Shown here one piece after another: positions 676 through 21,953 of a stretch of 61,158 bases of DNA. The position numbers and the translations under genes were made by a program. Location: the NCBI GenBank assembly GCA_035569995.1, contig DATMLS010000045.1, forward strand, positions 1 through 61,158. The letters run 5' to 3'. The stretch's first letter is position 1. Every line of letters begins with the position of its first letter. Under the pieces are notes generated by a model. It was given only the letters and a program-made list of their open reading frames with translations. It was not told the origin of the DNA and did no database searches. The DNA comes from Opitutaceae bacterium. Its GTDB lineage: Bacteria; Verrucomicrobiota; Verrucomicrobiia; Opitutales; Opitutaceae.

Positions 676-753
<78 letters not shown>

Positions 754-1021: not shown

Positions 1022-3817
1022 ATGACGCCCGAAGCCCAGGCCAGGGAGAAGATCGACGCACAGCTCGTTGCGTGCGGCTGGGTCGTCCAGGATTACAAGG
1101 CCGTGGATTTCACCGCTGGCCATGGCATCGCCCTCCGTGAAGTCCCGCTTAAGACAGGGCCCTGCGATTACTTGCTCCTCTTGAACCGTCAGGCCGTCGG
1201 TGTGATTGAGGCCAAGAAAGAAGGCACCACGCTCTCTGTTGTTGCGGATCAGTCTGCCCGCTACGCCACCAGCGTGCCCGATTTTCTCGCTGCCGAACTC
1301 ACTGGTAAACTCCCGTTTCTCTACGAATCCACCGGCGTCGAAACCTATTTCCGCGACGAGCGCGACCCTGACCCGCGTTCACGGCTCGTGTTCAGCTTTC
1401 ACCGCCCTGAAACGCTCGCCGAATGGGTTACCGAGCCCGACACCCTCCGTCGTCGTCTCGCCGCACTCCCCACCGCGCATCCTCTTACCACCGCCGGTAT
1501 GCGCGACTGTCAGATCGAAGCCATTGGCGGCTTGGAAAAGTCCTTCGCTGAAAACCGCCCCCGAGCACTCATCCACATGGCCACAGGTGCTGGCAAGACC
1601 TACACCGCTTGTGCCTTCACGTACCGACTCATCAAATATGCCGGTGCGCGGCGCGTCCTTTTCCTCGTGGATCGGGCCAATCTTGGTGAACAGGCCCGCG
1701 ATGAGTTTGCCCGTTTTCGCACGCCAGACACCGGCCGGCTCTTCACCGAGCTCTACAACGTCCAACATCTGACCTCGTCGCACATCGACGATGTCTGCCG
1801 CGTCACCATCTGCACCATCCAGCGTCTTTACTCCATTCTGCGCGGAGAAGACCTGGCGGAAGGCGCGGACGATCTCTCCGGCGCGGAACTATCGGCGGCC
1901 CTAGGCATCACGCGCACGCGCGAGGTCGCTTACAACCCCGTCGTGCCCATCGAGAAGTTCGATTTCATCGTCACCGATGAGTGTCACCGCTCCATTTACA
2001 ATCTGTGGCGTCAGGTGCTCGAATATTTCGACGGATTCCTCATCGGCCTCACTGCTACGCCCGCGCCACAGACCATCGCCTACTTCCACCAAAACCGCGT
2101 CGCTGAATACAACCACGAGCGCGCCGTCGCCGATGGCGTCAACGTCGGCTATGATGTCTATCGCATAAAGACCCGCGTCACTGAGCAGGGTGGGAAGGTG
2201 GAAAAAGGCTTTCTCATCGACCACCGCAGTAAGGCTTCCCGTGCCCAGCGCTCGGCCGTGCTTGCTGATGACCTCGACTACACACCCGTTGATCTCGATC
2301 GCTCCGTTGTCGTGCCCGATCAGATTCGCACGCTTTTGCGCACCTACCGCGACGCCGTCTTCACCGAACTTTTTCCCGGCCGCACGCTCGTGCCAAAAAC
2401 CCTTATCTTCGCCAAGGACGACTCCCACGCTGAGGACATCGTCCACCTTTGCCGCGAAGTCTTTGGCCGGGGCAACGATTTTTGCAAAAAGATCACCTAC
2501 CAGGCCAAACACCCTGTCACTGGCAAGCCCGCCAAGTCGAAGGAGCTCATCAAGGAGTTTTGCCTTTCCCCTACGCTCCGCATTGCGGTGACCGTGGACA
2601 TGATTGCCACCGGCACAGATATCAAGCCGCTTGAAGTCCTCATCTTCCTGCGCGACGTCCGCAGCCGCGTCTATTTTGAGCAGATGAAAGGCCGCGGCAC
2701 CCGCGTCCTCACGCCTACCGATCTGCAATCCGTCTCCGGTGCCGATGCCCGGGCCAAGACCCACTTCGTCATCGTCGATGCGGTTGGCGTCTGCGAGAGC
2801 GACAAGACCGAGTCCCGCCCGCTTGACCGCCAGCCCACCGTCCCGCTCAAAACCCTCCTCCAGCGTGTCCTGTTTCCCGGCGGCCGCGACGAAGACACCC
2901 TCACCACGTTGGCGGCGCGCCTCGCCAGGCTCGACCGCGAACTCGACCAAACTCAACGCCAACTGGTCGCCGCCGCTTCCGGTGGGCATACGCCCGCCAC
3001 GCTGGCCGGAGCGCTTCTACGCGCCTGCGATCCTGACGCCATTGCTGAAAAGGCCGCCGGCAAAATCGGCGCCGAACCGCAGGAAATCGCATCGGAGAAA
3101 TTAGAAGCCGCTCACCAGCAACTCATCACTGATGCCTGTGCGCCCTTCGACAAAGTCGCGCTGCGCAACACGCTCGACAGCCTCAAACAGGAAACCGAAC
3201 AAACCCTCGACATTTACACCCCCGACGAAGTCCTCTCAGCCGGCTTCGATGCCGCTGCAAAAGCGAAAGCGGCTGGCCTCGTCCAAGCTTTCCGCGACTA
3301 CATCGCCAACAAGCGCGCCGAGATTGCCGCGCTCCAGATTTTGTACAGCCGCCCCTATCGCCAACGCCTCACCGAGCCGATGCTGAAGGAGCTGGAGAAG
3401 AAATTGCGCGACAACCATGCGGCCTGGACTGAAGACCGTCTCTGGGACGCCTTCGCTGTTACTTCGCCTGTGAAGGTGAAAGGCCGCTCGCAACTCGGCC
3501 GCTTTGCCGATCTTGTCTCTCTTGTGCGTTTTGCCCTCGAACAACAACCCATTCTCGAACCGTTCGCCGATTCCGTCCAGGGTCGCTTCGATTCATGGCT
3601 TGCGCAAAAAACAAAAAACGGCACGGCCTTCACAGCCGATCAACACGCATGGCTTGAGCTTATCCGCGATCACATCGCCACGAGTCTCAGTATCGAACCC
3701 GATGATTTCGACTTCGCGCCGTTCAGCCAGCGCGGTGGCCTGGGCAAAGCTCACCAACTTTTTGGCGAGCAGCTACCCAAACTTCTCGATGAACTCAACG
3801 AGGTGCTCGCAGCTTAA
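1022..3817 (+). CDS. hsdR: type I restriction enzyme R subunit (HsdR)
   Basis: N-terminal HsdR_N-type PD-(D/E)xK motif (GPCDYLLL...GVIEAKKEG). SF2 helicase Walker A HMATGAGKTYT and DEAH box VTDECHRS. Sits co-directionally upstream of hsdS and hsdM. Confidence 0.85.
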   Translation: MTPEAQAREKIDAQLVACGWVVQDYKAVDFTAGHGIALREVPLKTGPCDYLLLLNRQAVGVIEAKKEGTTLSVVADQSARYATSVPDFLAAELTGKLPFLYESTGVETYFRDERDPDPRSRLVFSFHRPETLAEWVTEPDTLRRRLAALPTAHPLTTAGMRDCQIEAIGGLEKSFAENRPRALIHMATGAGKTYTACAFTYRLIKYAGARRVLFLVDRANLGEQARDEFARFRTPDTGRLFTELYNVQHLTSSHIDDVCRVTICTIQRLYSILRGEDLAEGADDLSGAELSAALGITRTREVAYNPVVPIEKFDFIVTDECHRSIYNLWRQVLEYFDGFLIGLTATPAPQTIAYFHQNRVAEYNHERAVADGVNVGYDVYRIKTRVTEQGGKVEKGFLIDHRSKASRAQRSAVLADDLDYTPVDLDRSVVVPDQIRTLLRTYRDAVFTELFPGRTLVPKTLIFAKDDSHAEDIVHLCREVFGRGNDFCKKITYQAKHPVTGKPAKSKELIKEFCLSPTLRIAVTVDMIATGTDIKPLEVLIFLRDVRSRVYFEQMKGRGTRVLTPTDLQSVSGADARAKTHFVIVDAVGVCESDKTESRPLDRQPTVPLKTLLQRVLFPGGRDEDTLTTLAARLARLDRELDQTQRQLVAAASGGHTPATLAGALLRACDPDAIAEKAAGKIGAEPQEIASEKLEAAHQQLITDACAPFDKVALRNTLDSLKQETEQTLDIYTPDEVLSAGFDAAAKAKAAGLVQAFRDYIANKRAEIAALQILYSRPYRQRLTEPMLKELEKKLRDNHAAWTEDRLWDAFAVTSPVKVKGRSQLGRFADLVSLVRFALEQQPILEPFADSVQGRFDSWLAQKTKNGTAFTADQHAWLELIRDHIATSLSIEPDDFDFAPFSQRGGLGKAHQLFGEQLPKLLDELNEVLAA

Positions 3818-3852: not shown

Positions 3853-4437
3853 ATGTCAGACCTAAATTCAGATCCTGAATTGAAAGCAATTGACCAGGTG
3901 ATCCAAGCCCTCGGCTCGCTCCAGCAAGACGCTCGTGAGCGAGTCGTCAGTTACGTGTTTCAACGGCTTGGCCTTTCAACACTAAATACATTTGCCCAAC
4001 CAACCCTTGAACAGCCGCCCCCACCGTCGTCGGTGACAGCGCTGCCAAGTTCGCCTCAACCTGCCGGGGGCGTGCATGATATTCGTAGCTTTAGAACCGC
4101 AAAGAGTCCAAAAACTGATAATGAAATGTCAGCTCTGGTGGCATACTACCTCAAACACCTAGCACCACCCGAAGAACGCAAGGATTCGATCGCGACTGCC
4201 GACATCGAAAAATACTTCGTTCAAGCAAATTACCCGCTTCCAAAACGACCGCGATTGACTCTGGGTAACGCGAAAAACGCGGGATACTTCGACCCGGCTG
4301 AACGTGGGTTCTTTAAATTGAATCCTGTTGGCCATAACCTAGTGGCGCACGGTCTTGGGAAAGATGGAGGCGATAGCGTGTCGAGCCGGATCAAGAAAAC
4401 GAGAAAGAGTGGGTCAAAGTCAAAGAAACGGAGTTAG
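3853..4437 (+). CDS. hypothetical protein with a basic C-terminal tail, between hsdR and hsdS
   Basis: ORF with a plausible RBS (aaggagataaacATG). Lower GC than hsdR. Its stop (TAG) abuts the ATG of the next ORF. No recognisable motif. Confidence 0.5.
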   Translation: MSDLNSDPELKAIDQVIQALGSLQQDARERVVSYVFQRLGLSTLNTFAQPTLEQPPPPSSVTALPSSPQPAGGVHDIRSFRTAKSPKTDNEMSALVAYYLKHLAPPEERKDSIATADIEKYFVQANYPLPKRPRLTLGNAKNAGYFDPAERGFFKLNPVGHNLVAHGLGKDGGDSVSSRIKKTRKSGSKSKKRS

Positions 4438-5274
4438 ATGAATTTGACTCAAGACAGTTGGAGCGATCTGAACTTCAAGCTTGCAGCGCTGAAGTCCGGC
4501 TTAGCGAAATGCAGGGCCGTAAACGTGAACACGCTTCGATTAAAGGACGCTGCACAAGCGGCGATCCAACAATATTTCCGCCAATGTCGCCCGGAGGCGC
4601 AGCAGTCAGGTATCGCCGAGGCCGCGCTCGAATCTTTGGATCAAGGGTTTCAAAATTTACTGAAGTTCACCAACGGCAACAATCCTGTACGTCGCTATAA
4701 AGGTGAGTTGTCTGCGATTTTATCAGCAAAAACTTTGATTGATGCTGAGCGAGAGAAGCGGATTGGCGAATCTCAGGTGCGCAAAAACGCAACCAGCGTT
4801 TTTCTTAGCGCGCAAGAGGGGACGATTCTGAAAACGCTGGAGCAGATTGTCCCATTGGCCGCGTTATCATACCGCCAAGCCTGCATAGATCTAGCAACTC
4901 GTGACCGTATCTCGTATCGTGGTACGGCTAACGAATTGCGCGAGGCTCTCCGCGAACTGCTTGACCATTTAGCACCCGATGCAGACGTAGAAAACCAACA
5001 GGGATTCAAGTTTGAAGATGGTCAAAAGAAGCCGACTATGAAGCAGAAGGTTCGATTCATACTTCGGGCACGTGGGCTTCCGGCCACGGCTGGTGAAGCG
5101 CCCGAGAATGCGGTGTTACTGGCTGACGAAATGGTCGGCAAGTTGACCAGGTCGACTTACAACCGGTCCTCCATTTCTGCGCATGTATCGACTGCTCGCA
5201 GCGAAGTGTGCCAAATGAAAATGTATATCGACAGCGTGCTTGCCGAACTTCTTGAAATTCATCGTGAACACTGA
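4438..5274 (+). CDS. putative HEPN / Abi_C-like protein (candidate abortive-infection RNase)
   Basis: C-terminal R-x5-H motif (TYNRSSISAHVS) typical of HEPN/Abi_C. Start codon abuts the stop of the upstream ORF (TAGATG). 3' end overlaps hsdS. Confidence 0.45.
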   Translation: MNLTQDSWSDLNFKLAALKSGLAKCRAVNVNTLRLKDAAQAAIQQYFRQCRPEAQQSGIAEAALESLDQGFQNLLKFTNGNNPVRRYKGELSAILSAKTLIDAEREKRIGESQVRKNATSVFLSAQEGTILKTLEQIVPLAALSYRQACIDLATRDRISYRGTANELREALRELLDHLAPDADVENQQGFKFEDGQKKPTMKQKVRFILRARGLPATAGEAPENAVLLADEMVGKLTRSTYNRSSISAHVSTARSEVCQMKMYIDSVLAELLEIHREH

Positions 5275-6514
5275 AAGCCCCAAGATTAGCATTTGCCAAC
5301 TCCCGAACGGTTGGCGTCGCGTCGCAGTGAGAGACATGGCCGACTCCATTCAATACGGCCTCACCGCGAGCGCAATCAACCGGAAGTATGGCCCACGATT
5401 TCTCCGCATCACCGATATTCAGGACGGTCGTGTTAATTGGAGCGAGGTTCCATCTTGCGACATTCCGAAAGCGGACATTCCGAAGTACCGACTGTCATCC
5501 GGCGACTTGGTGTTTGCGCGTACCGGAGCGACCACCGGAAAGAGTTTTCTCATTGGCGATTGCCCTGAAGCGGTGTTCGCGTCTTACTTGATCCGTGTTC
5601 GCGTTTCGGCAGACGTTGACTCGCGCTATCTCTCGGCATTTTTCCAAAGCCCGGATTATTGGCGGCAAATTGAGGATGGCAAACGTGGCATTGGGCAGCC
5701 AAACGTTAACGGGACGGTGCTCGGCGAAGTTCAGTTTCCCGTCGCGCCTCTCCACGAACAACGCAGGATCGTGGCGGAGATCGAAAAGCAATTCACGCGC
5801 TTGGACGCTGGAGTCGCCGCGTTGCGACGAGTGCAAGCCAATCTCAAACGCTACCGCGCCGCCGTCCTCAAAGCCGCCTGCGAAGGCCGCCTCGTTTCAT
5901 CGAGCGTAAAATGGCCACGTCGGAAACTTGGCGAACTGACTTCTAAGATTGGCAGTGGCTCGACACCGCGAGGTGGCGCTGATGTCTATCGTGATGCTGG
6001 TATCCCGCTAATTCGTTCGATGAACGTTCATTCCACTGGCTTTCGCTTCGACGGACTCGCGCATATCGACGAAACTGAAGCCGAAAAACTGGATCATGTA
6101 ACCGTTGAGGCAGGTGACGTATTGTTGAACATCACTGGAGCATCGATTGGACGAGTAACGACTGCTCCTGCCTCGCTTGATGGCGCCCGTGTTAATCAAC
6201 ACGTCTGCATAATTCGTCCAAACCAAGGACTAGTTTCTGCGTTTCTTGCGATATTCCTCGCGTCGCCAATCGAGCAAGCGCGTGTCTTGAATGTCCAAGT
6301 TGGTGCAACGCGTCAGGCGCTCACCAAATCGATGATCGTAAACTGGGAAGTTCCAGTCCCGCCCCTCGCCGAGCAAACGCGAATCGTAGCGGAAGTGGAG
6401 CGGCGCTTGAGTGTAGTGGAGGAGTTAGAAACAGTCGTGACCGCCAACCTCCAGCGCACCATTCGCCTCCGCCAGTCCATCCTTCAAGAAGCATTTACGG
6501 GAAATTTTACTTAA
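5240..6514 (+). CDS. hsdS: type I R-M specificity subunit (HsdS), two target recognition domains
   Basis: LPNGW N-terminus. Conserved central helix (AEIEKQFTRLDAGVAALRRV...) and a C-terminal repeat (AEQTRIVAEVERRLSVVEELE). The true start may be the in-frame GTG at 5264 or the ATG at 5336. Confidence 0.8.
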   Translation: MPNFLKFIVNTESPKISICQLPNGWRRVAVRDMADSIQYGLTASAINRKYGPRFLRITDIQDGRVNWSEVPSCDIPKADIPKYRLSSGDLVFARTGATTGKSFLIGDCPEAVFASYLIRVRVSADVDSRYLSAFFQSPDYWRQIEDGKRGIGQPNVNGTVLGEVQFPVAPLHEQRRIVAEIEKQFTRLDAGVAALRRVQANLKRYRAAVLKAACEGRLVSSSVKWPRRKLGELTSKIGSGSTPRGGADVYRDAGIPLIRSMNVHSTGFRFDGLAHIDETEAEKLDHVTVEAGDVLLNITGASIGRVTTAPASLDGARVNQHVCIIRPNQGLVSAFLAIFLASPIEQARVLNVQVGATRQALTKSMIVNWEVPVPPLAEQTRIVAEVERRLSVVEELETVVTANLQRTIRLRQSILQEAFTGNFT

Positions 6515-6520
6515 CTTAAT

Positions 6521-7837
6521 ATGCCAATTATTCCACCAGCGATCACTATCGACAAAGGACCGTCAAGAGACGCAGAGGTCGCCGCGAGATGCCACGAGAT
6601 TCAAACCGGGTTGGGCTTAGCGGAAGTCCCGGAGTTTGAACAATTGCAACGTGTAGGAATGGCGGTTCGCCTTGCTCTCCATATACGCGGACTCGCGTCA
6701 GTAAATTATGAAACGTTGAAATTGGTCGCGAACCATTATCTCAGCATTCCAGTTGGCGGCATTAAGAGCATACTCGAAGTATTGGCCGAGGTTGAATTTG
6801 TTAAGCTCCAAACAGAGGGGAAAACGATCAAAGCAGTTATTCCCAATGTCCCATACTACGAGACGCTCTATGAGACGCTCGGAACGTATGCAGCTGGAGC
6901 GAAATTCAATGAAGCAGAGCAGTTGAGCGTCGAACTCCTCAGCAGGCTCTCCAAAGCACCCGAGAAAGTTGACACTCTAATTACGCACTTTGGAGTCGAG
7001 ACGAAGTTATTCAATCGCGCATTTGATCTCGGTAAACAAGGTGCTTACTTGCGGGTCCACCGAAGCCGAGGGCGCGACGTTGCGCTCAGCCCGACATACT
7101 TCTCGGAGAACTCCGAAATCTACGCCGACATGGTTTCCGGAGTTGGCTCGAAGCAGGTCAAGAAACTGATGGACGCGCTTCACAGCATGCAGGGTGTTCC
7201 GTTGTCGATAATCCAAAAGCAAAAGGAAATTGCTGGTGTGAAATTCACTGACGAAGAATTAAACCTGTTGCTTCGCCTCGCTCAAGACGGTGCGGTCAAA
7301 CCGCCGAGCATCACCACGGCCCACTCCGGCGAGCAGTTCTTTTTATTCACCCCGACCCCTTCGGGGGCCGCGCTTGCTGTAACGAAGAGGGACATTTATG
7401 AAAAGGCGATGGCGATCGTGGCGGCGGTGCGCCAAGGCCAGTTCCTTGCAAGTCGCTTCGCAATTCGTTCTCCCGGAGCAGTGCTGTATAAGCTCAAAGA
7501 GAACATGAAACTCGCGAAGGCTACGACCGAAGCCTCGCAACAATATCGGAAACTCGTGGTTCATCGTGTCGCACGCTTGGTCGACCTCGGCGGCGGCTTC
7601 AGTCAGCTCCAGATAATCGACACTCTAGAGAATCGAGAGGCCCTTTCGATTGCCTACAAACTGGTTGATGCCGGAGTTGCAGTCGGCACTGAGGTCGACG
7701 AATCAGCGAGGCAAGCACTTCAGCAAGAGCACTCATTTGTGGAATCCCTCGTCGCATCTGGTGCCCTGCAACGGCGGGGCAAGGTGACGCTCACGCACGA
7801 CCAACAACTTGAGATGGAAACCCTCTTCCTAAAATAA
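6521..7837 (+). CDS. hypothetical protein (438 aa), between hsdS and hsdM
   Basis: Tight spacing to hsdS (6 nt) and to the next ORF (4 nt). Protein-like composition. No recognisable motif. Confidence 0.55.
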   Translation: MPIIPPAITIDKGPSRDAEVAARCHEIQTGLGLAEVPEFEQLQRVGMAVRLALHIRGLASVNYETLKLVANHYLSIPVGGIKSILEVLAEVEFVKLQTEGKTIKAVIPNVPYYETLYETLGTYAAGAKFNEAEQLSVELLSRLSKAPEKVDTLITHFGVETKLFNRAFDLGKQGAYLRVHRSRGRDVALSPTYFSENSEIYADMVSGVGSKQVKKLMDALHSMQGVPLSIIQKQKEIAGVKFTDEELNLLLRLAQDGAVKPPSITTAHSGEQFFLFTPTPSGAALAVTKRDIYEKAMAIVAAVRQGQFLASRFAIRSPGAVLYKLKENMKLAKATTEASQQYRKLVVHRVARLVDLGGGFSQLQIIDTLENREALSIAYKLVDAGVAVGTEVDESARQALQQEHSFVESLVASGALQRRGKVTLTHDQQLEMETLFLK

Positions 7838-7841
7838 GCTT

Positions 7842-8936
7842 ATGATGAAAGACCGTGACCAAAAGCAAAAGGCGCTGAAACTCTCAGTCGCGAACCGGTG
7901 GTTCCCTCAACTTGAGGTGGATGTCCAGCCTGGCCGAGCATTGAAGGAGCGGGCCCCGCTCGTTACTGATCTCGACGTTTTCTCTTCCATTCCCGATCAG
8001 TTTAAGGGCTTCCGCTCGGTCGTGTTCGATTGCAAAACGAAGGCAAAGGAATCACCAGTCAATCGTGCGTTGTGGTTGGCCGGTGTTCTCGAAAGGCTAC
8101 AAGCAGACCAAGGTTTCTGCATCCTGAAGAAGGACCAGATTCAACTTGACCACTGTTTGATGGCGACACGCCTCAACGTTGTTCTACTGACTGAAGACGA
8201 GTTCGACCTCTACGCGAAAGTGACGTGCCCTCGCTACGGCGGTCCTCTCGGCAATGTCAGTGAGATGGATGCTTGGGAACAGCTCTTCTCAATCCCGTCC
8301 CGGTTCCCGAAACTGGATTCAGGCATCCAGTTCATTCGGTCGACATTTTGGATGGTAGATGACTCCGCTGAAGCGTGTCGAAGATGCCTCGCGTGCTTAA
8401 AAGGACTCCACCCCGAGATGGACCCGTCAAAGCCGGAACACATTGCTGTTTTTCTCGAGTTCTGCGCGGTGTTCGCGCGTTCGCTGGCGGTTGTAGTGTG
8501 CCAGATTTTCAAATCCTACATGCTTCCCGCGAAACAAACAGACCTCGCGGACGCATTACTAGTCATGCTTTACGGTGGACGCGAAGCTTACGAGCACCGG
8601 AATGAGCTTTTCAAACTAGTGAAGGGGAAAGGCACTGACCAAGTGCCGCCGGATTTGTCGCTTCCCGAGTGGGACCGCTTTCTCCAACTGGTAAGGCAAT
8701 GCTTGGATGCCCCGTTCGAAATACAACATGCGCCGTTGATACTTCGGGAAGCGGCATTCTCCGCGCTACGGGGAGACACAGCGAGGGCCTTTGCGAAGAC
8801 CTTGTGTGCGGAGTCACCTCAGGGTGCGCGATTTGCGCTGTTGATTCCAACATATTTGGGAAGAGCGGCAAAACTCCCGCCGGAATTCGAAAAGGCGGCA
8901 GACGAGATTCTTATACCTTTGATTCCCGTGAAATGA
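7842..8936 (+). CDS. hypothetical protein with a possible N-terminal PD-(D/E)xK nuclease-like motif
   Basis: LVTDLDVF...VVFDCKTK resembles a D...(D/E)xK motif. Co-oriented and tightly packed with 6521..7837. Located between hsdS and hsdM. Confidence 0.5.
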   Translation: MMKDRDQKQKALKLSVANRWFPQLEVDVQPGRALKERAPLVTDLDVFSSIPDQFKGFRSVVFDCKTKAKESPVNRALWLAGVLERLQADQGFCILKKDQIQLDHCLMATRLNVVLLTEDEFDLYAKVTCPRYGGPLGNVSEMDAWEQLFSIPSRFPKLDSGIQFIRSTFWMVDDSAEACRRCLACLKGLHPEMDPSKPEHIAVFLEFCAVFARSLAVVVCQIFKSYMLPAKQTDLADALLVMLYGGREAYEHRNELFKLVKGKGTDQVPPDLSLPEWDRFLQLVRQCLDAPFEIQHAPLILREAAFSALRGDTARAFAKTLCAESPQGARFALLIPTYLGRAAKLPPEFEKAADEILIPLIPVK

Positions 8937-9018: not shown

Positions 9019-10488
9019 ATGACCGCCCCCGCGCTAGTTCAGAAGCTATGGAATTACTGCAACATCCTGCGGGATGACGGGCTGTCTTATGGCGATTACG
9101 TCGAGCAACTTACGTTTCTGCTCTTCCTCAAGATGGCCGATGAGCAGAGCCGCGCGCCGTTCAATAAGCCGTCGCCCATCCCGAAGGGCTTCGGCTGGGA
9201 TGTGCTGGTGAAGATCGATGGCGATGATCTCGAAACACACTACCGTCACACGTTGGAGGAGCTCGGCAAGCGAGCCGGGATGCTCGGAATCATTTTCCGC
9301 AAGGCGCAGAACAAAATCCAAGACCCCGCCAAACTTCGCCGCCTCATCGCCGACCTGATCGACAAGGAAGAATGGTCCTCGCTCGAAGTCGATGTGAAGG
9401 GCGACGCCTATGAGGGCTTGCTCGAAAAGAACGCTGCCGACGTTAAGGGCGGTGCTGGCCAATACTTCACGCCTCGCGCACTCATCGCAGCAATGGTGGA
9501 CGTAATCGCCCCCCAGCCCGGCCAAACGATTTGCGATCCTGCCTGCGGCACTGGTGGCTTTCTCCTCGCCGCATACACGTATCTTTCCGATCCGAAAAAC
9601 AACCAACTCGACCGCGCACAAAAGAAAAAGCTCAAGACCGGCACGCTTTTCGGAATCGAGCTTGTGGACAGCGTCACGCGCCTCTGCGCGATGAACATGA
9701 TGCTGCACGGCATAGGCGGTGAGTCCGACACCATCGATCTGCCTGTCGTCACCAAGGACGCGCTTGCCGGCAAGCACGGCGAATATGATCTCGTCCTCGC
9801 CAATCCGCCCTTCGGAAAAAAGAGCAGCGTTACCATCACAAACGAAGAGGGCGAGGTCTCCAAGGAGTCGCTCGTCATCAACCGCGACGATTTCTGGGCG
9901 ACCACGAGCAACAAGCAGCTCAATTTCCTCCAGCACATCTTTACCATCCTCAAGCAGCACGGCCGAGCGGCCGTGGTATTGCCCGATAATGTTCTCTTCG
10001 AAGGTGGTGCTGGCGAGACCATCCGACGCCAGCTTCTCCAGCAAGCCGACGTCCACACGCTCCTTCGCCTGCCCACGGGAATTTTCTACGCGCAAGGCGT
10101 GAAAGCCAATGTGCTCTTCTTCGACCGTAAGCCCGCCGCCGACAAAAAGGCGTGGACGGAAAAACTTTGGATTTACGATCTCCGCACGAACAAACACTTC
10201 ACGCTCAAAGAAAATACGCTGAAGCGCACCGACCTCGACGACTTCGTGAAGTGCTTCAACGTCAAGGATCGCACGAAACGGAAGGAGTCCGAACGATTCA
10301 AAGCCTTCGCTTACGAAGAGCTCCTTAAGCGCGACAAAGTGAACCTGGACATCTTCTGGCTCAAGGATGACGCCCTTGAAGACAGTGCCAATCTACCCGC
10401 GCCTGGCATCATCGCCACCGACATCATCGCCGACCTCGAAGCCGCTCTGGAACAGTTTAGTGAAATAGAATCAGACCTGAAGGAGTAA
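9019..10488 (+). CDS. hsdM: type I R-M N6-adenine DNA methyltransferase subunit (HsdM)
   Basis: HsdM N-terminal helix domain. SAM-binding motif DPACGTGGFL. Catalytic motif LANPPFG. Confidence 0.9.
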   Translation: MTAPALVQKLWNYCNILRDDGLSYGDYVEQLTFLLFLKMADEQSRAPFNKPSPIPKGFGWDVLVKIDGDDLETHYRHTLEELGKRAGMLGIIFRKAQNKIQDPAKLRRLIADLIDKEEWSSLEVDVKGDAYEGLLEKNAADVKGGAGQYFTPRALIAAMVDVIAPQPGQTICDPACGTGGFLLAAYTYLSDPKNNQLDRAQKKKLKTGTLFGIELVDSVTRLCAMNMMLHGIGGESDTIDLPVVTKDALAGKHGEYDLVLANPPFGKKSSVTITNEEGEVSKESLVINRDDFWATTSNKQLNFLQHIFTILKQHGRAAVVLPDNVLFEGGAGETIRRQLLQQADVHTLLRLPTGIFYAQGVKANVLFFDRKPAADKKAWTEKLWIYDLRTNKHFTLKENTLKRTDLDDFVKCFNVKDRTKRKESERFKAFAYEELLKRDKVNLDIFWLKDDALEDSANLPAPGIIATDIIADLEAALEQFSEIESDLKE

Positions 10489-10494: not shown

Positions 10495-11109
10495 ATGTCC
10501 GACTTCTCCAATCTACCAGTCGATGAGCGCATCTTCTTAGACATTTGGGAGATTCCGGGCAACAGTGAGAAAATAATTCCAATCGACTTTTCTGACCCAA
10601 AAGAGGCAGCAATTTTTCAATCAATCACGTCGATAGCTAATCTTGCGATTGCATGTGACATGTTGTTCACGACGCTTGATCGGTCAGTGGCTACTGAGTT
10701 GGCAAAAGCGGTGGAGAGACGCATTTTGTCAGCTGTAGCGTTGTTTCCGTTCCGTTTTCCAGTGAACACGATTTTGAAACTGCCGTCAGAGCTAGATGCA
10801 TGGAAGGCTTGGAGTGGAAAACCAGCAGATGGAGTTCACTCCAATCTCGAAACGATACTAAATATTGTCTGGGCTCAGCGACTCGGCGATTATCAGACGG
10901 ACCTGATAACCAGCATGAAACTCTCGTTGGACAGTCGATTCAATGCATACGGCCCAGTCGTGTTTCTTACGAAACGTTATCTCTCTCATAAGACCGGAAT
11001 CCCAATTGATCCACAATCATGTTTTCCAGAAGTAGGATTGGAGCATTTCGCGCAGTACAACTATTATCTTATGGGTATTTTTCAGAGCGTGATGGCGTAT
11101 GCGAAATAG
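10495..11109 (+). CDS. hypothetical protein (204 aa), AT-rich
   Basis: ORF begins 6 nt after hsdM. Markedly lower GC than its neighbours. Confidence 0.5.
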   Translation: MSDFSNLPVDERIFLDIWEIPGNSEKIIPIDFSDPKEAAIFQSITSIANLAIACDMLFTTLDRSVATELAKAVERRILSAVALFPFRFPVNTILKLPSELDAWKAWSGKPADGVHSNLETILNIVWAQRLGDYQTDLITSMKLSLDSRFNAYGPVVFLTKRYLSHKTGIPIDPQSCFPEVGLEHFAQYNYYLMGIFQSVMAYAK

Positions 11110-11149
11110 GAACTGATTCCTCTCCGATAAGCCGAATCTAGAAACCCGG

Positions 11150-12058
11150 ATGAAAGCTCTCTCACCATCCTTCGTTGAACTAACTCAGGACGCCCTGTTG
11201 AAAGCCTTTTGGTTCAAGCCCAGCCTCCGTCTGTTTCTCCTACAGCATAACATCAGCGAGTCGGCGCTTGCCCAGTGGCATTCAGAGCAATCGAAACGGG
11301 AATACATCGGCTGGCTTTGGCCGCGGCTGGTGAAAAACGAGAAGGGGCAAAATGCGATTTTGTCGATGGCCCGATCCCTGGCAGAAATGAAGGACTTTCC
11401 AGATCTCGAACGGAAAGAGGATACGAAGCAACAAATCCAGGAGGCGAAACGAGCTGTCGCCCGACTGCGCGAAGCAGTCCTCGCAATCAATGAGACAATT
11501 TACGAGGGGAAGGAAGCGGAAAAGCGCCGGCGAATAGCGCAGGAAGCCACTGCCGCCCGACTCGCTTCACAGCAATCGCTTGAAAGACTTCAGGCCCGGC
11601 TTGCTGAACTCACGTCGCAATTGGGCACTACCGCGGGCGGCTACGCTTTCGAGGAGTGGTTCTACGATCTTGCGATTTATTTCGAACTGGATGCTCGACA
11701 GAGTTATAAGGCTGGCGGCCGGCAGATCGATGGAGCCCTTACAATTGAAGGAACGACGTTCCTTCTGGAGACAAAATTTACGAAAGAGATGATTAGCCCC
11801 GAGGCGATCGACTCGTTCATGGCCAAAATCCACGCAAAGGCTGACAACACGATGGGCTTCCTTGTGTCGATCGCGGGCTTCAACGAGGGAGCTATCCGAG
11901 CTGCATCGAAGGAGCGGACGCCAATGCTGCTTCTCGACCAAGGACATATTTTCAACTTGATCCTCCGTGGCATCATGACGCTTCCGCAGGTTGTGGCCCG
12001 AATCAAGCGGCACGCTTCTCAGACCGGTTCGGCGTATTTGGCCGCAACCGATTTTTAA
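11150..12058 (+). CDS. coiled-coil protein with a C-terminal Mrr-like restriction-endonuclease (PD-(D/E)xK) domain
   Basis: C-terminus YAFEEWFYDL...QIDGALTIEGTTFLLETKF matches the Mrr_cat pattern (D...ExK). Central region is a heptad-rich coiled coil. Confidence 0.6.
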   Translation: MKALSPSFVELTQDALLKAFWFKPSLRLFLLQHNISESALAQWHSEQSKREYIGWLWPRLVKNEKGQNAILSMARSLAEMKDFPDLERKEDTKQQIQEAKRAVARLREAVLAINETIYEGKEAEKRRRIAQEATAARLASQQSLERLQARLAELTSQLGTTAGGYAFEEWFYDLAIYFELDARQSYKAGGRQIDGALTIEGTTFLLETKFTKEMISPEAIDSFMAKIHAKADNTMGFLVSIAGFNEGAIRAASKERTPMLLLDQGHIFNLILRGIMTLPQVVARIKRHASQTGSAYLAATDF

Positions 12059-12455: not shown

Positions 12456-12908
12456 ATGCGCGTTTATGAAGCTTCAATCAGCTACAACCTCGTCAAACTC
12501 GGCGAAAACCTGACAGTCAACACGCCGGCAAAGACCGTCGAATATCTTGAATCTGCATTCGCGGTCCACCCAATGCAGGAAGCTTTCTGGGTGATCCTGC
12601 TTGATCGGAAAAATCGCGCTTTAGGCCGCGTGATGATCTCTCTCGGAACACTGTCGAACACACTTGTGCATCCGCGCGAGGTCTTCAAACCAGCGTTTCT
12701 GGCCTCGGCTTCCGCGGTTATCGTTGCCCATAATCACCCGAGTGGTGATCCCGCGCCGAGCGCGGCGGACATCCAGGTCACGCGTCAACTGCGTGAGGCT
12801 GCAAAGATTCTCGACATAATCCTCATCGATCATGTCATCGTTGGGCATGCCGAGAGCGATCCCCTGGGCGTGGGTTATTACTCCTTTAGGGCGACGGGGC
12901 TCTTGTGA
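12456..12908 (+). CDS. radC: RadC-like JAB/MPN domain protein
   Basis: JAMM motif HNHPSGDPAPSAADIQVT and overall RadC architecture. RadC genes are common cargo of integrative elements. Confidence 0.85.
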   Translation: MRVYEASISYNLVKLGENLTVNTPAKTVEYLESAFAVHPMQEAFWVILLDRKNRALGRVMISLGTLSNTLVHPREVFKPAFLASASAVIVAHNHPSGDPAPSAADIQVTRQLREAAKILDIILIDHVIVGHAESDPLGVGYYSFRATGLL

Positions 12909-13149: not shown

Positions 13150-15114
13150 ATGGTCCTCCATCCATTTGCCGTTATTCGGCTACACCTCAGCCTCGCCGCG
13201 GTCGGCATTGGCCTAGCATTGACTAGTTGCCAACACGCCGTTCCTAAGCACGCGATGTTGCATCCACTTCCCATCACCGGCACTGGTCAGAATGATCAAC
13301 CGTCGTCACCTGCCGCTGGCAGCGGTGCCGACGAATCCGATCCGCACATATATTATATCGGATCTCAAAGCATCCTGACTTTTGATAAGCAGGGAACGCC
13401 AGGGGCTGGAACTCTTAATATTCCGGTTTATGGAAGTCATTTGTTCTCCACAATCCATAACAAAAATAATACCGATCAACCGCAAATAACCCTACAGATT
13501 ACAGGAACGGTGCCAATTTCCGAGGACGACTATGATTGGGACCGGTCTACGGATCTCACTGCACAGACTGAGGACGAGCAGTTAATCAAGATCCTGCCGT
13601 CCTATGTGAGTCGCCTCCACACCGGAGATCGGCTTGAAGTCGAAGTGGGCATTGGCAGGAGCTCGCAGGCGTACTATATGAGACGAACTTTCACGATGTA
13701 TGCTGTCGATGATTATCGCAAATTGTTGGCTGGGCGAGTGCCCATTGGCGACATAAATGCATTTCCCTTGCCTGATGAAGAGACGCGCTACCTTTTTGGC
13801 CCTACGATCACCAGTGAATACTACGTGGTGGAGCTAACTCTGAGGAATTCCGGTTCGCAAGACGAGCTGGTGAACATAGGGATGATTAGCGCCGATGGGA
13901 GCGCGATTGTTCAGCCGGATGGCACAGACAAGACACTCAAGCAGACCTATACGGTTCCAATTGAAATCCCGCCCCAGAGCCCCTTACAAGTATATGCAGT
14001 GCTTGACGGGCAGGGAGACAAACAATCACGTTCTTGGATTTTTCGAAGCCTTGAGTTCGTTGGGGCACTTGGCACTGCTGTGGTGACAAGCTACACTCAT
14101 ACGCCGGCAGATGTGGTCAAGGGTTTTACCCTTTTCACTGGAGTTGGCATTCCTGCCGGCGATAAGCTGTGGCCTGATCAATGGCCAAGATATAAGAGCA
14201 ATTTGGTCAACTTTAGCATGCCCGAATTGGTTAAAGTGCCCAAGCAATCAACGACCACCCCAAAATTCATATTCTTTTCCAAGAAGAATCTTGGGCTGTT
14301 AATATCTGATCCAACTTTGTTCAGAAATGGCTCCTGGTTTGGTCACCAATCGCTGGGTCCAATCAACGAAGCAACCTCCCCATCGGTACGTGTAGTCACC
14401 CTGGCCTTCGACAACCTCGACATTCCTTTTGAAATAATTACAAGCCCGGCGGTGGTCGATCTGCACGAAACCTTGAATCTCCTCCAGAGTGATTTGGCCT
14501 CTCATCTCGCACGCCTCCAAACAACGCAAAAACTGTGGAGCGCTGGCGCTCAATTCGCCGATGGCGTGGATTTCGCCACGCTCAAGGCGATCTCTCAAAA
14601 GCTTTCCGCTCTCCCCGGCAGAGATCCCTTGAAAGCCGTGCCCGAAACTGATGATCTGAAGCAGTCTGTTACCCAACTCAGCGTTCTAGCCGCTTACCTG
14701 GCGCAGGCCGGCAATCCCAAGAGCCCTTTGTTCACAAGCCTGCTCACGGACAAAAACCAACCCGTGGCAAGCTTGTCCGATTTGCTACCGCTACTCTCCG
14801 AAGTGAGTCTGCTTCAATTTCGCCTGTCTGCCGGCGCTGACGTCGGTCCCCTGCAGGAACGCGCGACGGCTATACAGAAGCAGGTGGACGCAAGTCGTGC
14901 TCTTTTTGAATTCCTAATGCAAGCGGCGACGATATTTGCGAGTCCAGATTTTACCAAAACGTTGGATAATTGGCCGACGAAAGCGGCGGATCTCAATAGC
15001 TCGTCCGCACATGATATGATGGTCACCGACTTTACCATCTTGCGCCGCGAGCGAACTTTCCAGGCATTACAAAATTTTGCGCCTGACGATTACAAGAAGA
15101 TAGTCGCTCCCTAG
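13150..15114 (+). CDS. large predicted lipoprotein of unknown function (654 aa)
   Basis: Signal peptide with a lipobox-like LALTSC. AT-rich relative to the rest of the window. Confidence 0.55.
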   Translation: MVLHPFAVIRLHLSLAAVGIGLALTSCQHAVPKHAMLHPLPITGTGQNDQPSSPAAGSGADESDPHIYYIGSQSILTFDKQGTPGAGTLNIPVYGSHLFSTIHNKNNTDQPQITLQITGTVPISEDDYDWDRSTDLTAQTEDEQLIKILPSYVSRLHTGDRLEVEVGIGRSSQAYYMRRTFTMYAVDDYRKLLAGRVPIGDINAFPLPDEETRYLFGPTITSEYYVVELTLRNSGSQDELVNIGMISADGSAIVQPDGTDKTLKQTYTVPIEIPPQSPLQVYAVLDGQGDKQSRSWIFRSLEFVGALGTAVVTSYTHTPADVVKGFTLFTGVGIPAGDKLWPDQWPRYKSNLVNFSMPELVKVPKQSTTTPKFIFFSKKNLGLLISDPTLFRNGSWFGHQSLGPINEATSPSVRVVTLAFDNLDIPFEIITSPAVVDLHETLNLLQSDLASHLARLQTTQKLWSAGAQFADGVDFATLKAISQKLSALPGRDPLKAVPETDDLKQSVTQLSVLAAYLAQAGNPKSPLFTSLLTDKNQPVASLSDLLPLLSEVSLLQFRLSAGADVGPLQERATAIQKQVDASRALFEFLMQAATIFASPDFTKTLDNWPTKAADLNSSSAHDMMVTDFTILRRERTFQALQNFAPDDYKKIVAP

Positions 15115-16057: not shown

Positions 16058-16104
16058 GCAAACTCCGTCCGCTGCGCTCCCGGAGTTTGCACAAGTGCGG
16101 CCCT
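16058..16104 (+). promoter_or_regulatory. candidate oriT: 10-bp inverted repeat followed by a MOBQ-like nic-site sequence
   Basis: GCAAACTCCG-(13 nt)-CGGAGTTTGC is immediately followed by ACAAGTGCGGCCCT, which resembles the RSF1010 nick region GTAAGTGCG|CCCT. It lies between the divergent mobC and mobA genes. Confidence 0.5.
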
Positions 16105-16227
16105 GCGGGCGGCGCGTGCGCTGCGGCGCACGTCTGCCATTGGCGCAAGCGCCTTGCGTTGCGCAAAAAAGTTTCTCACCCGCGCACCCGCGGGAAGTCT
16201 CGGAAAGCTGCTAGACTATGGTCTAGC

Positions 16228-17280
16228 ATGAGAAACTCTTTTCATTTGAACATGGCCGCGCACTCGCGTTCGCACGGCCACAGCGCAGCGGCCAAAGTGG
16301 CCTACGTCACTGCAAGTCGCGGACGCGACGTGTGGGTTGGCAAGACCCACGATTATTCGCGGAAGAAGGGCGTCACGCGCTCGGCATGCGTAAATTACGA
16401 AGGCACGCCAAAAGAGTTGGCGCGCTTGATGGATACAACCGAAACGCGCCGAAACTCGACTGTTTGCCGGGAATTGATTTTTGCTCTTCCGCACGGATTG
16501 CCGGAGGAACAGCGCTGGGAACTTGCTTTCCGTCTCGGCGAGACAGTCGCCACGCGTTACGGCGTAGCCGGCGTTGTTGCATTGCACGAACCATCCGCCA
16601 AGGGCGACCGGAGAAATGACCACGCGCACATCGTCTTCTCTACGCGAAAAATAGAGGACGGCGAGCTCACTACGAAGACACGTGTGCTCGACGACCGAAA
16701 GACCGGCGCGGGTGAAGTGAAATGGCTGCGCGCTGAAAGCGCGCGACTGATAGGGGAAGCGCTCGCTGAGGTTGGACGCACCTTAGAGATCCCCGCGTGG
16801 GATCACCGCAGCTATGCCGACCGCGGAATTGATCAGCCAACAACGCGGCATGAAGGCGTGCGCGGTCGAGCACTCGCGCGCAAAGGCCGCGCCACAGTTT
16901 TTTCCCGAGACAACCAAGTAATACGCTCGGCCCTTGAGGAAACGAGAAAGTTAGAAAGCGAAATCGCAAATGAATACGTTAACAACATCATCGCAGCTCG
17001 CCGACCTACAAAAGGAAAACCACGAGCTGAAAGACACATTGAAGAACTTGCGCGAGAACCTAGCAAAGCTCGCGGGGGACAGCCCGTTCGTGAAAGTGGG
17101 ACCATGGCTCTTCCTCTTCACGGACATTCGGAGGATCAAAGCAAACGAGCAGGGCCGCCTGGACATACTCAACGAAACCGAGGCCTTCGGCGAGGTCTTG
17201 GTGCAAGACTTGGAAAACTTGGTCTCAGCGCACTATCGAAAGGCGCGAGAGAACTCGGACTAACACCTGACACGTTCTAA
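16228..17280 (+). CDS. mobA: MobA/MobL-family relaxase (MOBQ)
   Basis: N-terminus FHLNMAAHSRSHGHSAAAKVAYVTASRG matches the relaxase motif I region. Histidine triad motif NDHAHIVFSTR. The start is taken at the internal ATG at 16228; the upstream extension of ORF 16087 is improbable. Confidence 0.8.
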   Translation: MRNSFHLNMAAHSRSHGHSAAAKVAYVTASRGRDVWVGKTHDYSRKKGVTRSACVNYEGTPKELARLMDTTETRRNSTVCRELIFALPHGLPEEQRWELAFRLGETVATRYGVAGVVALHEPSAKGDRRNDHAHIVFSTRKIEDGELTTKTRVLDDRKTGAGEVKWLRAESARLIGEALAEVGRTLEIPAWDHRSYADRGIDQPTTRHEGVRGRALARKGRATVFSRDNQVIRSALEETRKLESEIANEYVNNIIAARRPTKGKPRAERHIEELAREPSKARGGQPVRESGTMALPLHGHSEDQSKRAGPPGHTQRNRGLRRGLGARLGKLGLSALSKGARELGLTPDTF

Positions 17281-21733: not shown

Positions 21734-21782
21734 ATACAAAATAACTGTTAATCACTTGGTCACTGGTTCGATCCCAGCCCGG
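21734..21782 (+). repeat. attR: truncated tRNA-Asn 3' half (right copy of the direct repeat)
   Basis: A 49-bp copy of 705..753 with 1 mismatch. It lacks the 5' half of the tRNA, so it is not a functional tRNA gene. Confidence 0.8.
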
Positions 21783-21953
21783 GCAGCCAGTCCAGCCAAT
21801 TATCCAGGCTGTTCTGGCCGTATTTTTCTAACCAATCTGCACGGTTGGAAAAAGCCTTTGATATTGTAAGTGATTTCCAAAGGGAATTTTGCTTAAATCA
21901 CTCACGTTATTTATCCGAAGCGCAGAGGCCAGTAAATCGAAGTTAATCCCCCC

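What the first reader, a model, noticed from the sequence alone, without database searches (positions are those of the whole stretch)
3853..5274. Two-gene cassette wedged between hsdR and hsdS, including a HEPN/Abi_C-like protein
A type I R-M operon is normally hsdR-hsdM-hsdS or similar, with nothing between the structural genes. Here hsdR is followed, at 35 nt, by a 194-aa basic protein. Its TAG stop directly abuts the ATG of a 278-aa protein carrying a C-terminal R-x5-H motif (YNRSSISAH), the hallmark of HEPN/Abi_C RNase domains. That second gene overlaps hsdS. The two inserted genes are lower in GC than hsdR. Embedding of an RNase-type abortive-infection module inside an R-M operon is reminiscent of PrrC/RloC-type anticodon nucleases, but the sequence is not recognisably PrrC-like. 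This is a candidate uncharacterised R-M-linked defense module.
Basis: partly seen in the sequence, partly recalled or inferred. Interest (0 to 1): 0.75.

Follow-up and report, generated by a model that had tools for sequence, protein, structure and literature searches.

The report
Mobile two-gene cassette inside restriction operon
Two small genes between the subunits of a restriction enzyme operon form a self-contained, widely travelling pair (a DNA-binding protein plus a predicted nuclease) that has landed inside such operons several separate times, so it is a reasonable but untested phage-defence or toxin-antitoxin candidate of a kind already known.

Summary
Genes A (3853-4437, 194 aa, pI 9.75) and B (4438-5274, 278 aa) lie between hsdR and hsdS. 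A's stop abuts B's start, and both are lower in GC than hsdR.

B belongs to Pfam PF18165 (pP_pnuc_1, a predicted nuclease). Its R243-x5-H249 motif is kept in 175 and 179 of 180 relatives. No profile or fold search ties B specifically to HEPN or Abi_C, and it has no ATPase domain, so it is not PrrC-like. A is a winged-helix DNA-binding protein with a basic tail.

A-B is an autonomous cassette. A sits directly upstream of B in about 120 of 126 informative loci from more than 12 phyla, and no third gene recurs. About 5% of loci lie in or next to type I R-M genes, at four different positions, which implies at least two independent insertions.

The same operon holds a second independent cassette, C-D, between hsdS and hsdM. 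The whole region lies on a ~21 kb integrative mobilizable element at tRNA-Asn.

Best reading: a TA/Abi-type module riding as embedded cargo. Embedded cargo in R-M operons is a known phenomenon (PrrC, DarTG2, "guilt-by-embedding"). It is a new member of a known kind, of moderate interest.

The parts
3853..4437 (+). Gene A, 194 aa. It has an N-terminal helical hairpin (residues 8-38), a disordered P/S-rich linker (44-72), a winged-helix domain (77-167) and a K/R-rich tail (168-194). It is the conserved partner of B.
4438..5274 (+). Gene B, 278 aa. It is all-alpha, with an N-terminal helical bundle (about residues 1-120) and a C-terminal pP_pnuc_1 domain (about 136-278). It is the predicted nuclease effector.
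   Evidence: PF18165 at 44.9 bits (cutoff 26.3) and PADLOC Aga_Nuclease at 3.4e-8. All 31 relatives hit PF18165. AF2 pLDDT 85. The C-domain alone recurs behind other N-domains, including AbiTii.
5164..5184 (+). Codons for R243-S-S-I-S-A-H249, the conserved R-x5-H motif. It lies in the loop and first turn before the last helix of B.
   Evidence: Sequence. Invariant in 31/31 relatives. R243 in 175/180 and H249 in 179/180. Helix boundaries 216-239 and 246-271.
4906..4980 (+). Codons for the most conserved block of B, R157-x-S-x-R-G-x-A-x-E-x-R-E-x-x-R-E-x-x-D-H...D181 (start of helix 161-178).
   Evidence: R157, R161, G162 and R168 are 180/180. E169, R172, E173 and D176 are 179/180.
1022..3817 (+). 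hsdR, the type I restriction subunit (EcoEI/EcoAI-like). It is the upstream host gene of the operon.
   Evidence: Pfam ResIII, SWI2_SNF2 and EcoEI_R_C; PADLOC REase_I; NCBIfam PRK11448 and restrict_EcoAI, both below cutoff.
5240..6514 (+). hsdS, the specificity subunit. The start is uncertain: TTG 5240, TTG 5252, GTG 5264 or ATG 5336.
   Evidence: Methylase_S and PADLOC Specificity_I (6.9e-77, aligned from residue 19). Public calls use the 392-aa form.
6521..8936 (+). Genes C (6521-7837, 438 aa) and D (7842-8936, 364 aa). They form a second, unrelated autonomous two-gene cassette in the hsdS|hsdM junction.
   Evidence: No family hits. D has 205 homologues. The C-D pair recurs without intact hsd genes in L080-L082.
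9019..10488 (+). hsdM, the methyltransferase subunit.
   Evidence: N6_Mtase 1.6e-68, HsdM_N, PADLOC MTase_I 5.6e-192.
10495..12058 (+). Genes E (10495-11109, 204 aa, no hits) and F (11150-12058, 302 aa, C-terminal Mrr_cat nuclease domain). They follow hsdM on the same strand.
676..750 (+). tRNA-Asn. Its last 26 nt (725-750) form the left attachment repeat of the island that carries the operon.
21764..21789 (+). Exact 26-nt direct repeat of the tRNA-Asn 3' end. It marks the right end of a ~21 kb integrative mobilizable element.
   Evidence: Two exact matches against 0 expected. Integrase at 20285-21643 (-), MobA/MobL at 16087-17280, RadC at 12456-12908. Island GC is 0.537 against 0.585 for the rest of the window.

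Best explanation
A-B is a self-contained two-gene conflict module of the toxin-antitoxin / abortive-infection type. It does not depend on the restriction enzyme. It sits in the hsdR|hsdS junction as embedded cargo and is probably transcribed with the operon.

Proposed mechanism:
- B is the effector. Its C-terminal pP_pnuc_1 domain is an all-alpha, HEPN-like nuclease, most likely an RNase. R243 and H249, together with the invariant R157/R161/R168/E169/R172/E173 helix, would form the active site.
- B's N-terminal helical bundle is the regulatory part.
- A is its dedicated partner. It binds DNA through a winged helix and a basic tail, and it engages B's N-terminal bundle. A either holds B inactive and represses the cassette (antitoxin-like), or couples B's activation to a DNA or phage cue.
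- On infection or loss of A, B would cleave RNA and stop growth. This would give a second defence layer beside the R-M system and would also stabilise the mobile island.

Shown here: gene structure, family membership, residue conservation, winged-helix fold of A, autonomy and mobility of the pair, repeated embedding in R-M operons.
Inferred: nuclease activity, RNA as the substrate, A-B contact, toxicity, anti-phage effect.
For: 1. Tight, conserved pairing.
   - A lies directly upstream of B in about 60 of 64 non-truncated genome loci and in 61 of 62 metagenome loci with room upstream. Typical gaps are -4 to +26 nt.
   - No other gene recurs nearby.
2. Autonomy and mobility.
   - Stand-alone copies sit next to ParE/Phd, next to Fic, MNT, integrase and excisionase, next to an AAA_15/21 ATPase pair plus integrase, or among housekeeping genes.
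   - The hosts span more than 12 phyla.
3. B is in a curated predicted-nuclease family and has a nearly invariant set of charged residues, including R-x5-H.
4. The C-domain behaves as a swappable effector.
   - It follows an AbiTii domain in P0478 (1.1e-34) and other N-domains in P0479, P0505, L068 and L069.
   - AbiTii is also fused to a HEPN family (PMC3710099).
5. A is absent exactly where B's N-terminal bundle is replaced (L068, L069). This ties A to that bundle.
6. A has a winged-helix fold.
7. Embedding happened independently.
   - Window and L084: hsdR|A-B|hsdS. L055 and L064: hsdS|A-B|hsdM. L088: hsdM|A-B. L092/L093: A-B followed about 560 nt downstream by an hsdM-like methyltransferase (26% identity).
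   - Window B is only 33-39% identical to the L055/L064 copies.
8. A and B have a foreign composition relative to hsdR and hsdM.
9. All nine genes are on one strand with gaps of 82 nt or less. No plus-strand promoter-like site was found, and terminator-like sites are no more frequent than in shuffled sequence.
10. Precedents exist: a TA system embedded in a type I R-M and experimentally validated embedded defence genes.
Against: - No experiment exists for any member, and no solved relative was found by sequence.
- The HEPN fold is not specifically supported.
  - There are no HEPN-family profile hits.
  - The residue after R243 is S, G or A rather than the usual N, D or H.
  - The Ex3[KR] motif is not exactly present.
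- B occurs without a detectable A in L083 (intact B, 65% identical) and in L017. This is awkward for a strict antitoxin role.
- No conserved operator was seen by eye upstream of A.
- Immediate neighbours are mostly ordinary genes, so enrichment in defence islands is modest.
- The pair is absent from the plasmid and phage collections.
Confidence: 0.5

Rival explanations
1. PrrC/RloC-like guarded nuclease. B would be held latent by binding the Hsd complex and released when a phage anti-restriction protein disables the R-M enzyme. A would be an accessory factor.
For: B lies between hsdR and hsdS on the same strand and probably overlaps hsdS. R-M-embedded HEPN nucleases working this way are described (PMC3710099). 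A-B has been captured by the same R-M family at least twice.
Against: About 95% of A-B loci have no hsd genes within up to 10 kb (less on short contigs), so B's control cannot rest on Hsd proteins (15, 16, 52-55). B has no ABC-ATPase domain. A-B survives intact next to decayed hsd genes in L055, L064 and L083. Payne et al. note that PrrC is almost exclusively embedded, unlike this pair.
Confidence: 0.07
2. Pure addiction module. A-B is a toxin-antitoxin pair that only stabilises itself and the mobile DNA it sits in (the R-M operon and the island), with no role against phages.
For: The layout is TA-like and neighbours include other TA genes (ParE/Phd, HicAB, Fic, MazE) and integrative elements. 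Many copies sit among housekeeping genes rather than defence genes. The window copy lies on a tRNA-integrated mobilizable element.
Against: It is not found on any of 72,556 plasmids, where addiction modules are usually common. B is large (278 aa, two domains) for a classical type II toxin. The effector domain is shared with AbiTii- and Argonaute-associated proteins. Embedded genes have often proved to be defence genes. Addiction and defence are also not mutually exclusive.
Confidence: 0.2
3. DNA-directed nuclease pair. A's winged helix and basic tail would bring B to DNA, and B would cut DNA rather than RNA through a non-HEPN all-alpha active site, as a small restriction-like system without modification.
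For: Pfam and PADLOC call the domain only a predicted, Argonaute-associated nuclease, with no stated substrate. A is a DNA binder with weak Mrr_N similarity. HEPN membership is unconfirmed.
Against: No metal-binding acidic cluster typical of DNases stands out. The conserved residues are mainly R, E, H and Q on helices, and the R-x5-H sits at the start of the last helix as in HEPN RNases. An unregulated DNase with no methylase would be self-toxic.
Confidence: 0.13
4. Non-toxic regulatory or structural pair. A would be a transcription factor or nucleoid-associated protein and B a helical cofactor, with no nuclease activity and no role in conflict.
For: No catalytic function is demonstrated. B is made of helical bundles that resemble many non-enzymes. 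A resembles MarR/PadR-type regulators and histone H1.
Against: The patchy, horizontally spread distribution, the variable flanks and the location on integrative elements and in R-M operons do not fit a housekeeping regulator. The near-invariant charged residues, and reuse of the C-domain behind AbiTii, point to an effector.
Confidence: 0.1

Closest known systems
PrrC / RloC anticodon nucleases in type I R-M operons (EcoprrI)
   Same: A nuclease gene with an R-x-H type motif lies between hsd genes on the same strand and is thought to act as a back-up when restriction fails (PMC3710099; Payne et al.).
   Different: PrrC and RloC carry an N-terminal ABC-ATPase and are almost only found embedded. 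B has no ATPase, has its own partner A, and is R-M-associated in only about 5% of loci.
DarTG2 toxin-antitoxin embedded in the EPEC type I R-M island (RptR-regulated)
   Same: An autonomous two-gene TA/defence module is nested inside a type I R-M operon and expressed with it (PMC12255303).
   Different: The proteins are unrelated: DarT is an ADP-ribosyltransferase and DarG a macrodomain. A shows no sequence match to any PDB entry, which includes the solved RptR structure.
Embedded defence candidates of Payne et al. 2024 (HEC/PDC), e.g. HEC-08 (DUF3644 HEPN)
   Same: Genes nested in multi-gene defence systems in the same orientation, also found non-embedded. HEC-08 depends on its Rx4-6H histidine.
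   Different: A and B hit no HEC or PDC model in PADLOC-DB 2.0.0. B matches only Aga_Nuclease, over about 60 residues. Activity is untested.
AbiTii-fused effectors (AbiTii + HEPN c2405 family; AbiTii + pP_pnuc_1)
   Same: The same C-terminal domain as in B follows an AbiTii domain in P0478. AbiTii is also fused to a HEPN family. This suggests an equivalent effector role.
   Different: B carries its own helical N-domain instead of AbiTii and works with a separate partner protein, A.
Argonaute-associated predicted nucleases (Pfam pP_pnuc_1 / PADLOC Aga_Nuclease)
   Same: They share the conserved core domain.
   Different: No PIWI/Argonaute gene appears in any annotated neighbourhood, and no third gene recurs.
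HEPN-MNT and AbiE-type two-gene TA/Abi modules (AbiE from my own knowledge; HEPN-MNT from PMC3710099)
   Same: A small operon with translationally coupled genes. One partner has a winged-helix DNA-binding domain (AbiEi) or the effector is a HEPN RNase (HEPN-MNT).
   Different: There is no nucleotidyltransferase partner here. A has no detectable relation to AbiEi or MNT.

Membership tests
Pfam PF18165 (pP_pnuc_1, predicted pPIWI-associating nuclease) | Profile score above the curated gathering threshold | tested here: met
   B scores 44.9 bits against 26.3. All 31 aligned relatives match, best 6.8e-15. In P0440 the match spans profile positions 27-130 and so includes the R-x5-H region.
Pfam PF18165 (pP_pnuc_1, predicted pPIWI-associating nuclease) | Genomic association with a prokaryotic PIWI/Argonaute gene | tested here: not met
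   No Piwi family appears in any Pfam-annotated neighbourhood. No recurrent neighbour exists in 68 loci. No Piwi family is listed among nearest neighbours (which shows only the top 25 families).
HEPN superfamily | Conserved Rx4-6H motif | tested here: met
   R243-x5-H249 has R in 175/180 and H in 179/180 sequences. The motif alone would occur by chance in 63% of shuffles.
HEPN superfamily | All-alpha helical-bundle domain with the motif at the start of the last core helix | tested here: met
   The AF2 model (pLDDT 85) has helices 216-239 and 246-271. R243 is in the connecting loop and H249 in the first turn. Local pLDDT is low there (51 for residues 241-250).
HEPN superfamily | Polar N/D/H immediately after the motif arginine, and a second Ex3[KR] motif (PMC3710099) | tested here: not met
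   Position 244 is S (114), G (42) or A (18) of 180. The conserved helix reads E166-x-R168-E169-x-x-R172-E173, which is not Ex3[KR]. The criteria are quoted.
HEPN superfamily | Significant profile or fold match to an established HEPN family | tested here: inconclusive
Abi_C (PF14355) | Profile match to the Abi_C model | tested here: not met
   No hit at E<=1 for B or for 31 relatives.
PrrC / RloC anticodon nucleases | N-terminal ABC-ATPase domain fused to the nuclease domain | tested here: not met
   B has no ATPase family hit. It is 278 aa and all-alpha.
PrrC / RloC anticodon nucleases | Near-obligate location inside type I R-M operons | tested here: not met
   hsd homologues flank A-B in only 2 of 68 genome loci and 3 of 80 metagenome loci, plus the window clade.
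Type II toxin-antitoxin module | Two adjacent co-oriented small genes with overlapping or abutting stop and start, the upstream one DNA-binding | tested here: met
   The gap is 0 nt in the window and typically -4 to +26 nt elsewhere. A has a winged-helix fold.
Type II toxin-antitoxin module | Toxin gene not maintained without its antitoxin | tested here: inconclusive
   A is present in about 96% of informative loci. An intact B lacks A in L083 and L017. L068 and L069, which share only B's C-terminal domain behind a different N-terminal region, also lack A. These are single contigs of unknown viability.
Type II toxin-antitoxin module | B is toxic and A neutralises it | not testable with these tools
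   This needs expression experiments.
Embedded defence cassette ('guilt-by-embedding', Payne et al. 2024) | Nested between genes of a complete multi-gene defence system, same orientation, not a mobility or housekeeping gene | tested here: met
   Intact hsdR, hsdS and hsdM flank A-B on the + strand. A and B have no mobilome or housekeeping annotation.
Embedded defence cassette ('guilt-by-embedding', Payne et al. 2024) | Confers phage resistance | not testable with these tools
   This needs phage challenge of cloned A-B.

The most novel reading that the evidence does not exclude
A-B is a previously unrecognised, widespread anti-phage system with about 700 clusters at 50% identity across more than 12 phyla. 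A histone-H1-like winged-helix protein would sense foreign DNA or failure of restriction. It would then license a new, divergent HEPN-like RNase clade (pP_pnuc_1). That same effector domain is reused by Argonaute-linked and AbiTii-linked systems.
Probability: 0.3. Interest if true: 0.6.

Novelty: new member of a known kind. Interest (0 to 1): 0.4.

Why it matters
If A-B is active, it would add an uncharacterised two-gene module to the list of defence or toxin-antitoxin systems. It would also give a first function to Pfam PF18165, a domain that Argonaute- and AbiTii-associated proteins also carry.

The window is a clear example of one type I R-M operon acting as a docking site. It holds two unrelated autonomous cassettes (A-B and C-D), and such cassettes can outlive their decayed R-M hosts in other genomes.

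The idea itself, defence cargo embedded in R-M operons, is already established. The value here is a concrete, testable candidate, not a new principle. Cultured carriers exist: Bradyrhizobium sp. CSA207 (L043) and Arenimonas sp. MALMAid1274 (L059).

Tried and rejected
- **Abi_C or any Pfam HEPN family for B:** no hit at E<=1.
- **PrrC/RloC:** rejected. B has no ATPase and is mostly not R-M-linked.
- **Solved-structure relatives by sequence:** none for A or B.
- **Literature search for the family name:** PF18165, pP_pnuc_1 and 'pPIWI-associating' gave zero papers. The pPIWI-RE paper does not describe this domain.
- **A conserved third gene:** none.
- **Defence enrichment of nearest neighbours:** Pfam and PADLOC show mostly unrelated genes and a few methyltransferase or S-subunit genes. 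The tool lists only 25 families, so per-locus annotation was not possible.
- **Plasmid or phage carriage:** none.
- **PHROGs:** nothing.
- **Shared operator upstream of A in stand-alone loci:** none obvious by eye. No formal motif search was done.
- **Repeats flanking the cassette in the window:** only short matches of chance quality.
- **A-B fusions among the long relatives:** P0440, P0479 and P0505 carry other N-domains, not A. Only L058 reads through in frame, and that could be an assembly error.
- **A as an RptR-like R-M regulator:** no sequence similarity to any PDB entry, and A pairs with B rather than with R-M genes.
Full report
**1. The observation**

The window carries nine co-oriented genes on the + strand:
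- hsdR 1022-3817
- A 3853-4437
- B 4438-5274
- hsdS ending at 6514
- C 6521-7837
- D 7842-8936
- hsdM 9019-10488
- E 10495-11109
- F 11150-12058

The hsd genes are clear and full-length.
- hsdR has ResIII, SWI2_SNF2 and EcoEI_R_C domains and matches PADLOC REase_I.
- hsdS has Methylase_S and matches Specificity_I at 6.9e-77.
- hsdM has N6_Mtase and matches MTase_I at 5.6e-192.

- The gap after hsdR is 35 nt and contains a Shine-Dalgarno sequence.
- A's TAG abuts B's ATG.
- A is basic (pI 9.75) with a K/R-rich tail.
- YNRSSISAH covers residues 241-249 of B.
- A and B both have GC 0.509 against 0.601 for hsdR.

GC3 makes the compositional contrast clearer. hsdR (0.70) and hsdM (0.73) match each other. 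A (0.49), B (0.53), hsdS (0.56), C (0.58), D (0.60), E (0.48) and F (0.61) are all lower.

The overlap of B with hsdS depends on which start codon is used.
- Public gene calls start hsdS at ATG 5336.
- S-subunit profiles align from residue 19 of the longer ORF.
- The only in-frame start codons before that point (TTG 5240, TTG 5252, GTG 5264) all overlap B.

An R-x4-6-H string alone is not meaningful, because 63% of shuffles of B contain one.

**2. What the two proteins are**

*Protein B.*
- It matches Pfam PF18165 (pP_pnuc_1, "predicted pPIWI-associating nuclease") above the curated cutoff.
- It also matches PADLOC Aga_Nuclease over about 60 residues. Nothing else matches in Pfam, NCBIfam, PADLOC or PHROGs.
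- It has 1227 homologues.
- Across 180 aligned sequences, R157, R161, G162, R168 and Q203 are invariant.
- E169, R172, E173, D176 and H249 are kept in 179/180, and R243 in 175/180. So the flagged motif is a real family feature.
- The AF2 model (pLDDT 85) is all-alpha. It has an N-terminal bundle (to about residue 120) and a C-terminal domain in which R243 and H249 sit at the start of the last helix.
- That position is where HEPN domains carry Rx4-6H.

Several points count against a confident HEPN assignment.
- The residue after R243 is S, G or A rather than N, D or H.
- The Ex3[KR] motif is absent.
- No HEPN or Abi_C profile matches.
- No solved structure matches by sequence.

I therefore call B "HEPN-like, unconfirmed".

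*Protein A.*
- It matches no family in any library.
- Its model has a helical hairpin (residues 8-38), a disordered linker, and a helix-helix-helix-wing domain.
- Eight of 35 relatives hit Mrr_N weakly.

**3. A-B is an autonomous cassette and not an R-M accessory**

Pairing:
- A scan of one genome per species found 68 loci in more than 12 phyla.
- A is directly upstream of B in nearly all loci that are not cut by a contig end. Typical gaps are -4 to +26 nt.
- A metagenome scan gave 61 of 62 loci with A present.
- All-against-all comparison of 664 flanking ORFs found no recurrent third gene.

Stand-alone contexts:
- Pfam-annotated neighbourhoods show copies beside ParE/Phd.
- Other copies sit beside Fic, MNT and an integrase/excisionase pair.
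- Another sits beside an AAA_15/21 ATPase pair and an integrase.
- The rest lie among ordinary genes.

Domain behaviour:
- The C-terminal domain of B is a module in its own right. A profile of it finds 716 clusters at 50% identity with E<=1e-3.
- Some of these proteins have different N-terminal domains. One carries a clear AbiTii domain (P0478, 1.1e-34).
- AbiTii is a domain that Anantharaman et al. also found fused to a HEPN family.
- In L068 and L069 only the C-domain is shared, and no A gene is present. This links A to B's N-terminal bundle.

**4. Relation to R-M systems**

Only a minority of loci touch hsd genes, but they do so in several different ways.
- The window and L084 (B 74% identical) have hsdR|A-B|hsdS. 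In L084 a 789-aa gene replaces C-D.
- L083 (B 65% identical) has B fused to the rear part of a truncated hsdM, with no A.
- L055 and L064 have hsdS|A-B|hsdM with decayed hsd genes.
- L088 has hsdM|A-B.
- L092 and L093 have A-B followed about 560 nt downstream by an hsdM-like methyltransferase gene (26% identity).

The L055 and L064 copies of B are each other's best match (57%). They are only 33-39% identical to the window's B. At least two independent captures therefore occurred.

C-D behaves the same way.
- D has 205 homologues.
- The C-D pair recurs without intact hsd genes in L080-L082.
- In L080 it is still followed by a remnant of the hsdM N-terminus.

The whole operon lies on a ~21 kb element.
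- It is bounded by tRNA-Asn and an exact 26-nt repeat of the tRNA's 3' end.
- It carries a tyrosine integrase, a MobA/MobL relaxase and RadC.
- No plus-strand promoter-like site was found in the operon. Terminator-like sites are no more frequent than in shuffled sequence, which fits co-transcription.

**5. Mechanism**

The best-supported reading is a TA/Abi-type module.
- B's C-domain is the nuclease effector, most likely an RNase if it is HEPN-like.
- B's N-domain and protein A provide the control.
- The R-M operon only hosts and co-expresses the cassette.

The PrrC-like model, in which Hsd proteins hold the nuclease in check, is unlikely. The pair normally lives without hsd genes, and B has no ATPase.

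Whether the biological role is phage defence, addiction, or both cannot be decided here. Copies of B without A (L083, L017) are a caveat for a strict antitoxin role.

**6. Comparison and novelty**

Embedded genes in type I R-M operons are well known.
- PrrC/RloC and several HEPN families are described in Anantharaman et al. 2013.
- DarTG2 sits inside an EPEC type I system.
- Payne et al. 2024 carried out a systematic "guilt-by-embedding" survey. They note that a single embedded instance justifies follow-up and that 96.7% of embedded genes share the host's orientation.

A-B fits that pattern but matches none of their models. No paper in the library names its family.

It is a new, untested member of a known kind. 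I score interest as moderate (0.4).

Noticed in passing
window 6521-8936: Genes C (438 aa) and D (364 aa), between hsdS and hsdM, form a second autonomous two-gene cassette with no family hits. The pair recurs with a 3-4 nt gap and no intact hsd genes in L080-L082, beside a Cap4-nuclease locus with IS66, a TIR-STAND NTPase, or housekeeping genes.
   Followed up: partly
window 676-21789: The R-M operon lies on a ~21 kb integrative mobilizable element at tRNA-Asn. Exact 26-nt repeats lie at 725-750 and 21764-21789. It carries an integrase (20285-21643, -), MobA/MobL (16087-17280), RadC (12456-12908) and an HTH_17 gene. Island GC is 0.537 against 0.585 outside.
   Followed up: partly
window 10495-12058: Two more genes follow hsdM on the same strand. 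E (204 aa, GC3 0.48) has no hits. F (302 aa) has a coiled-coil-like N-terminal half and a C-terminal Mrr_cat restriction-nuclease domain (1.9e-5; weak PADLOC PDC-S02 hit).
   Followed up: no
window 13150-15114 and 17306-20149 (-): The island also carries a 654-aa protein with no family hit and a 947-aa protein with a weak AAA_16 (STAND-like) ATPase match. Both could be further defence cargo.
   Followed up: no
L055 3597-6705; L064 4930-10872; L083 8001-9859; L080 10092-10484: In other genomes the embedded cassettes are intact while the surrounding hsd genes are truncated or frameshifted. In L080 only an hsdM N-terminal remnant follows C-D. The cargo appears to outlive its R-M host.
   Followed up: partly
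L058 9122-10792: In one Acidobacteriota MAG, A and B read through as a single in-frame 556-aa ORF. This is either a natural fusion or a long-read assembly indel.
   Followed up: partly
P0478 (338 aa); P0479, P0505 (about 400 aa): The C-terminal pP_pnuc_1 domain of B is also found behind an AbiTii domain (P0478) and behind other unannotated N-terminal domains, like a swappable effector.
   Followed up: partly
L084 3267-5636: In the closest R-M-embedded relative (B 74% identical), the hsdS|hsdM junction holds a single 789-aa gene of unknown function instead of C-D. Cargo in that junction is therefore exchanged between close relatives.
   Followed up: no
window 1022-3817, 5336-6514, 9019-10488: hsdR and hsdM share a high GC3 (0.70 and 0.73), but hsdS is much lower (0.56). 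This suggests the specificity gene was also replaced or recombined.
   Followed up: no
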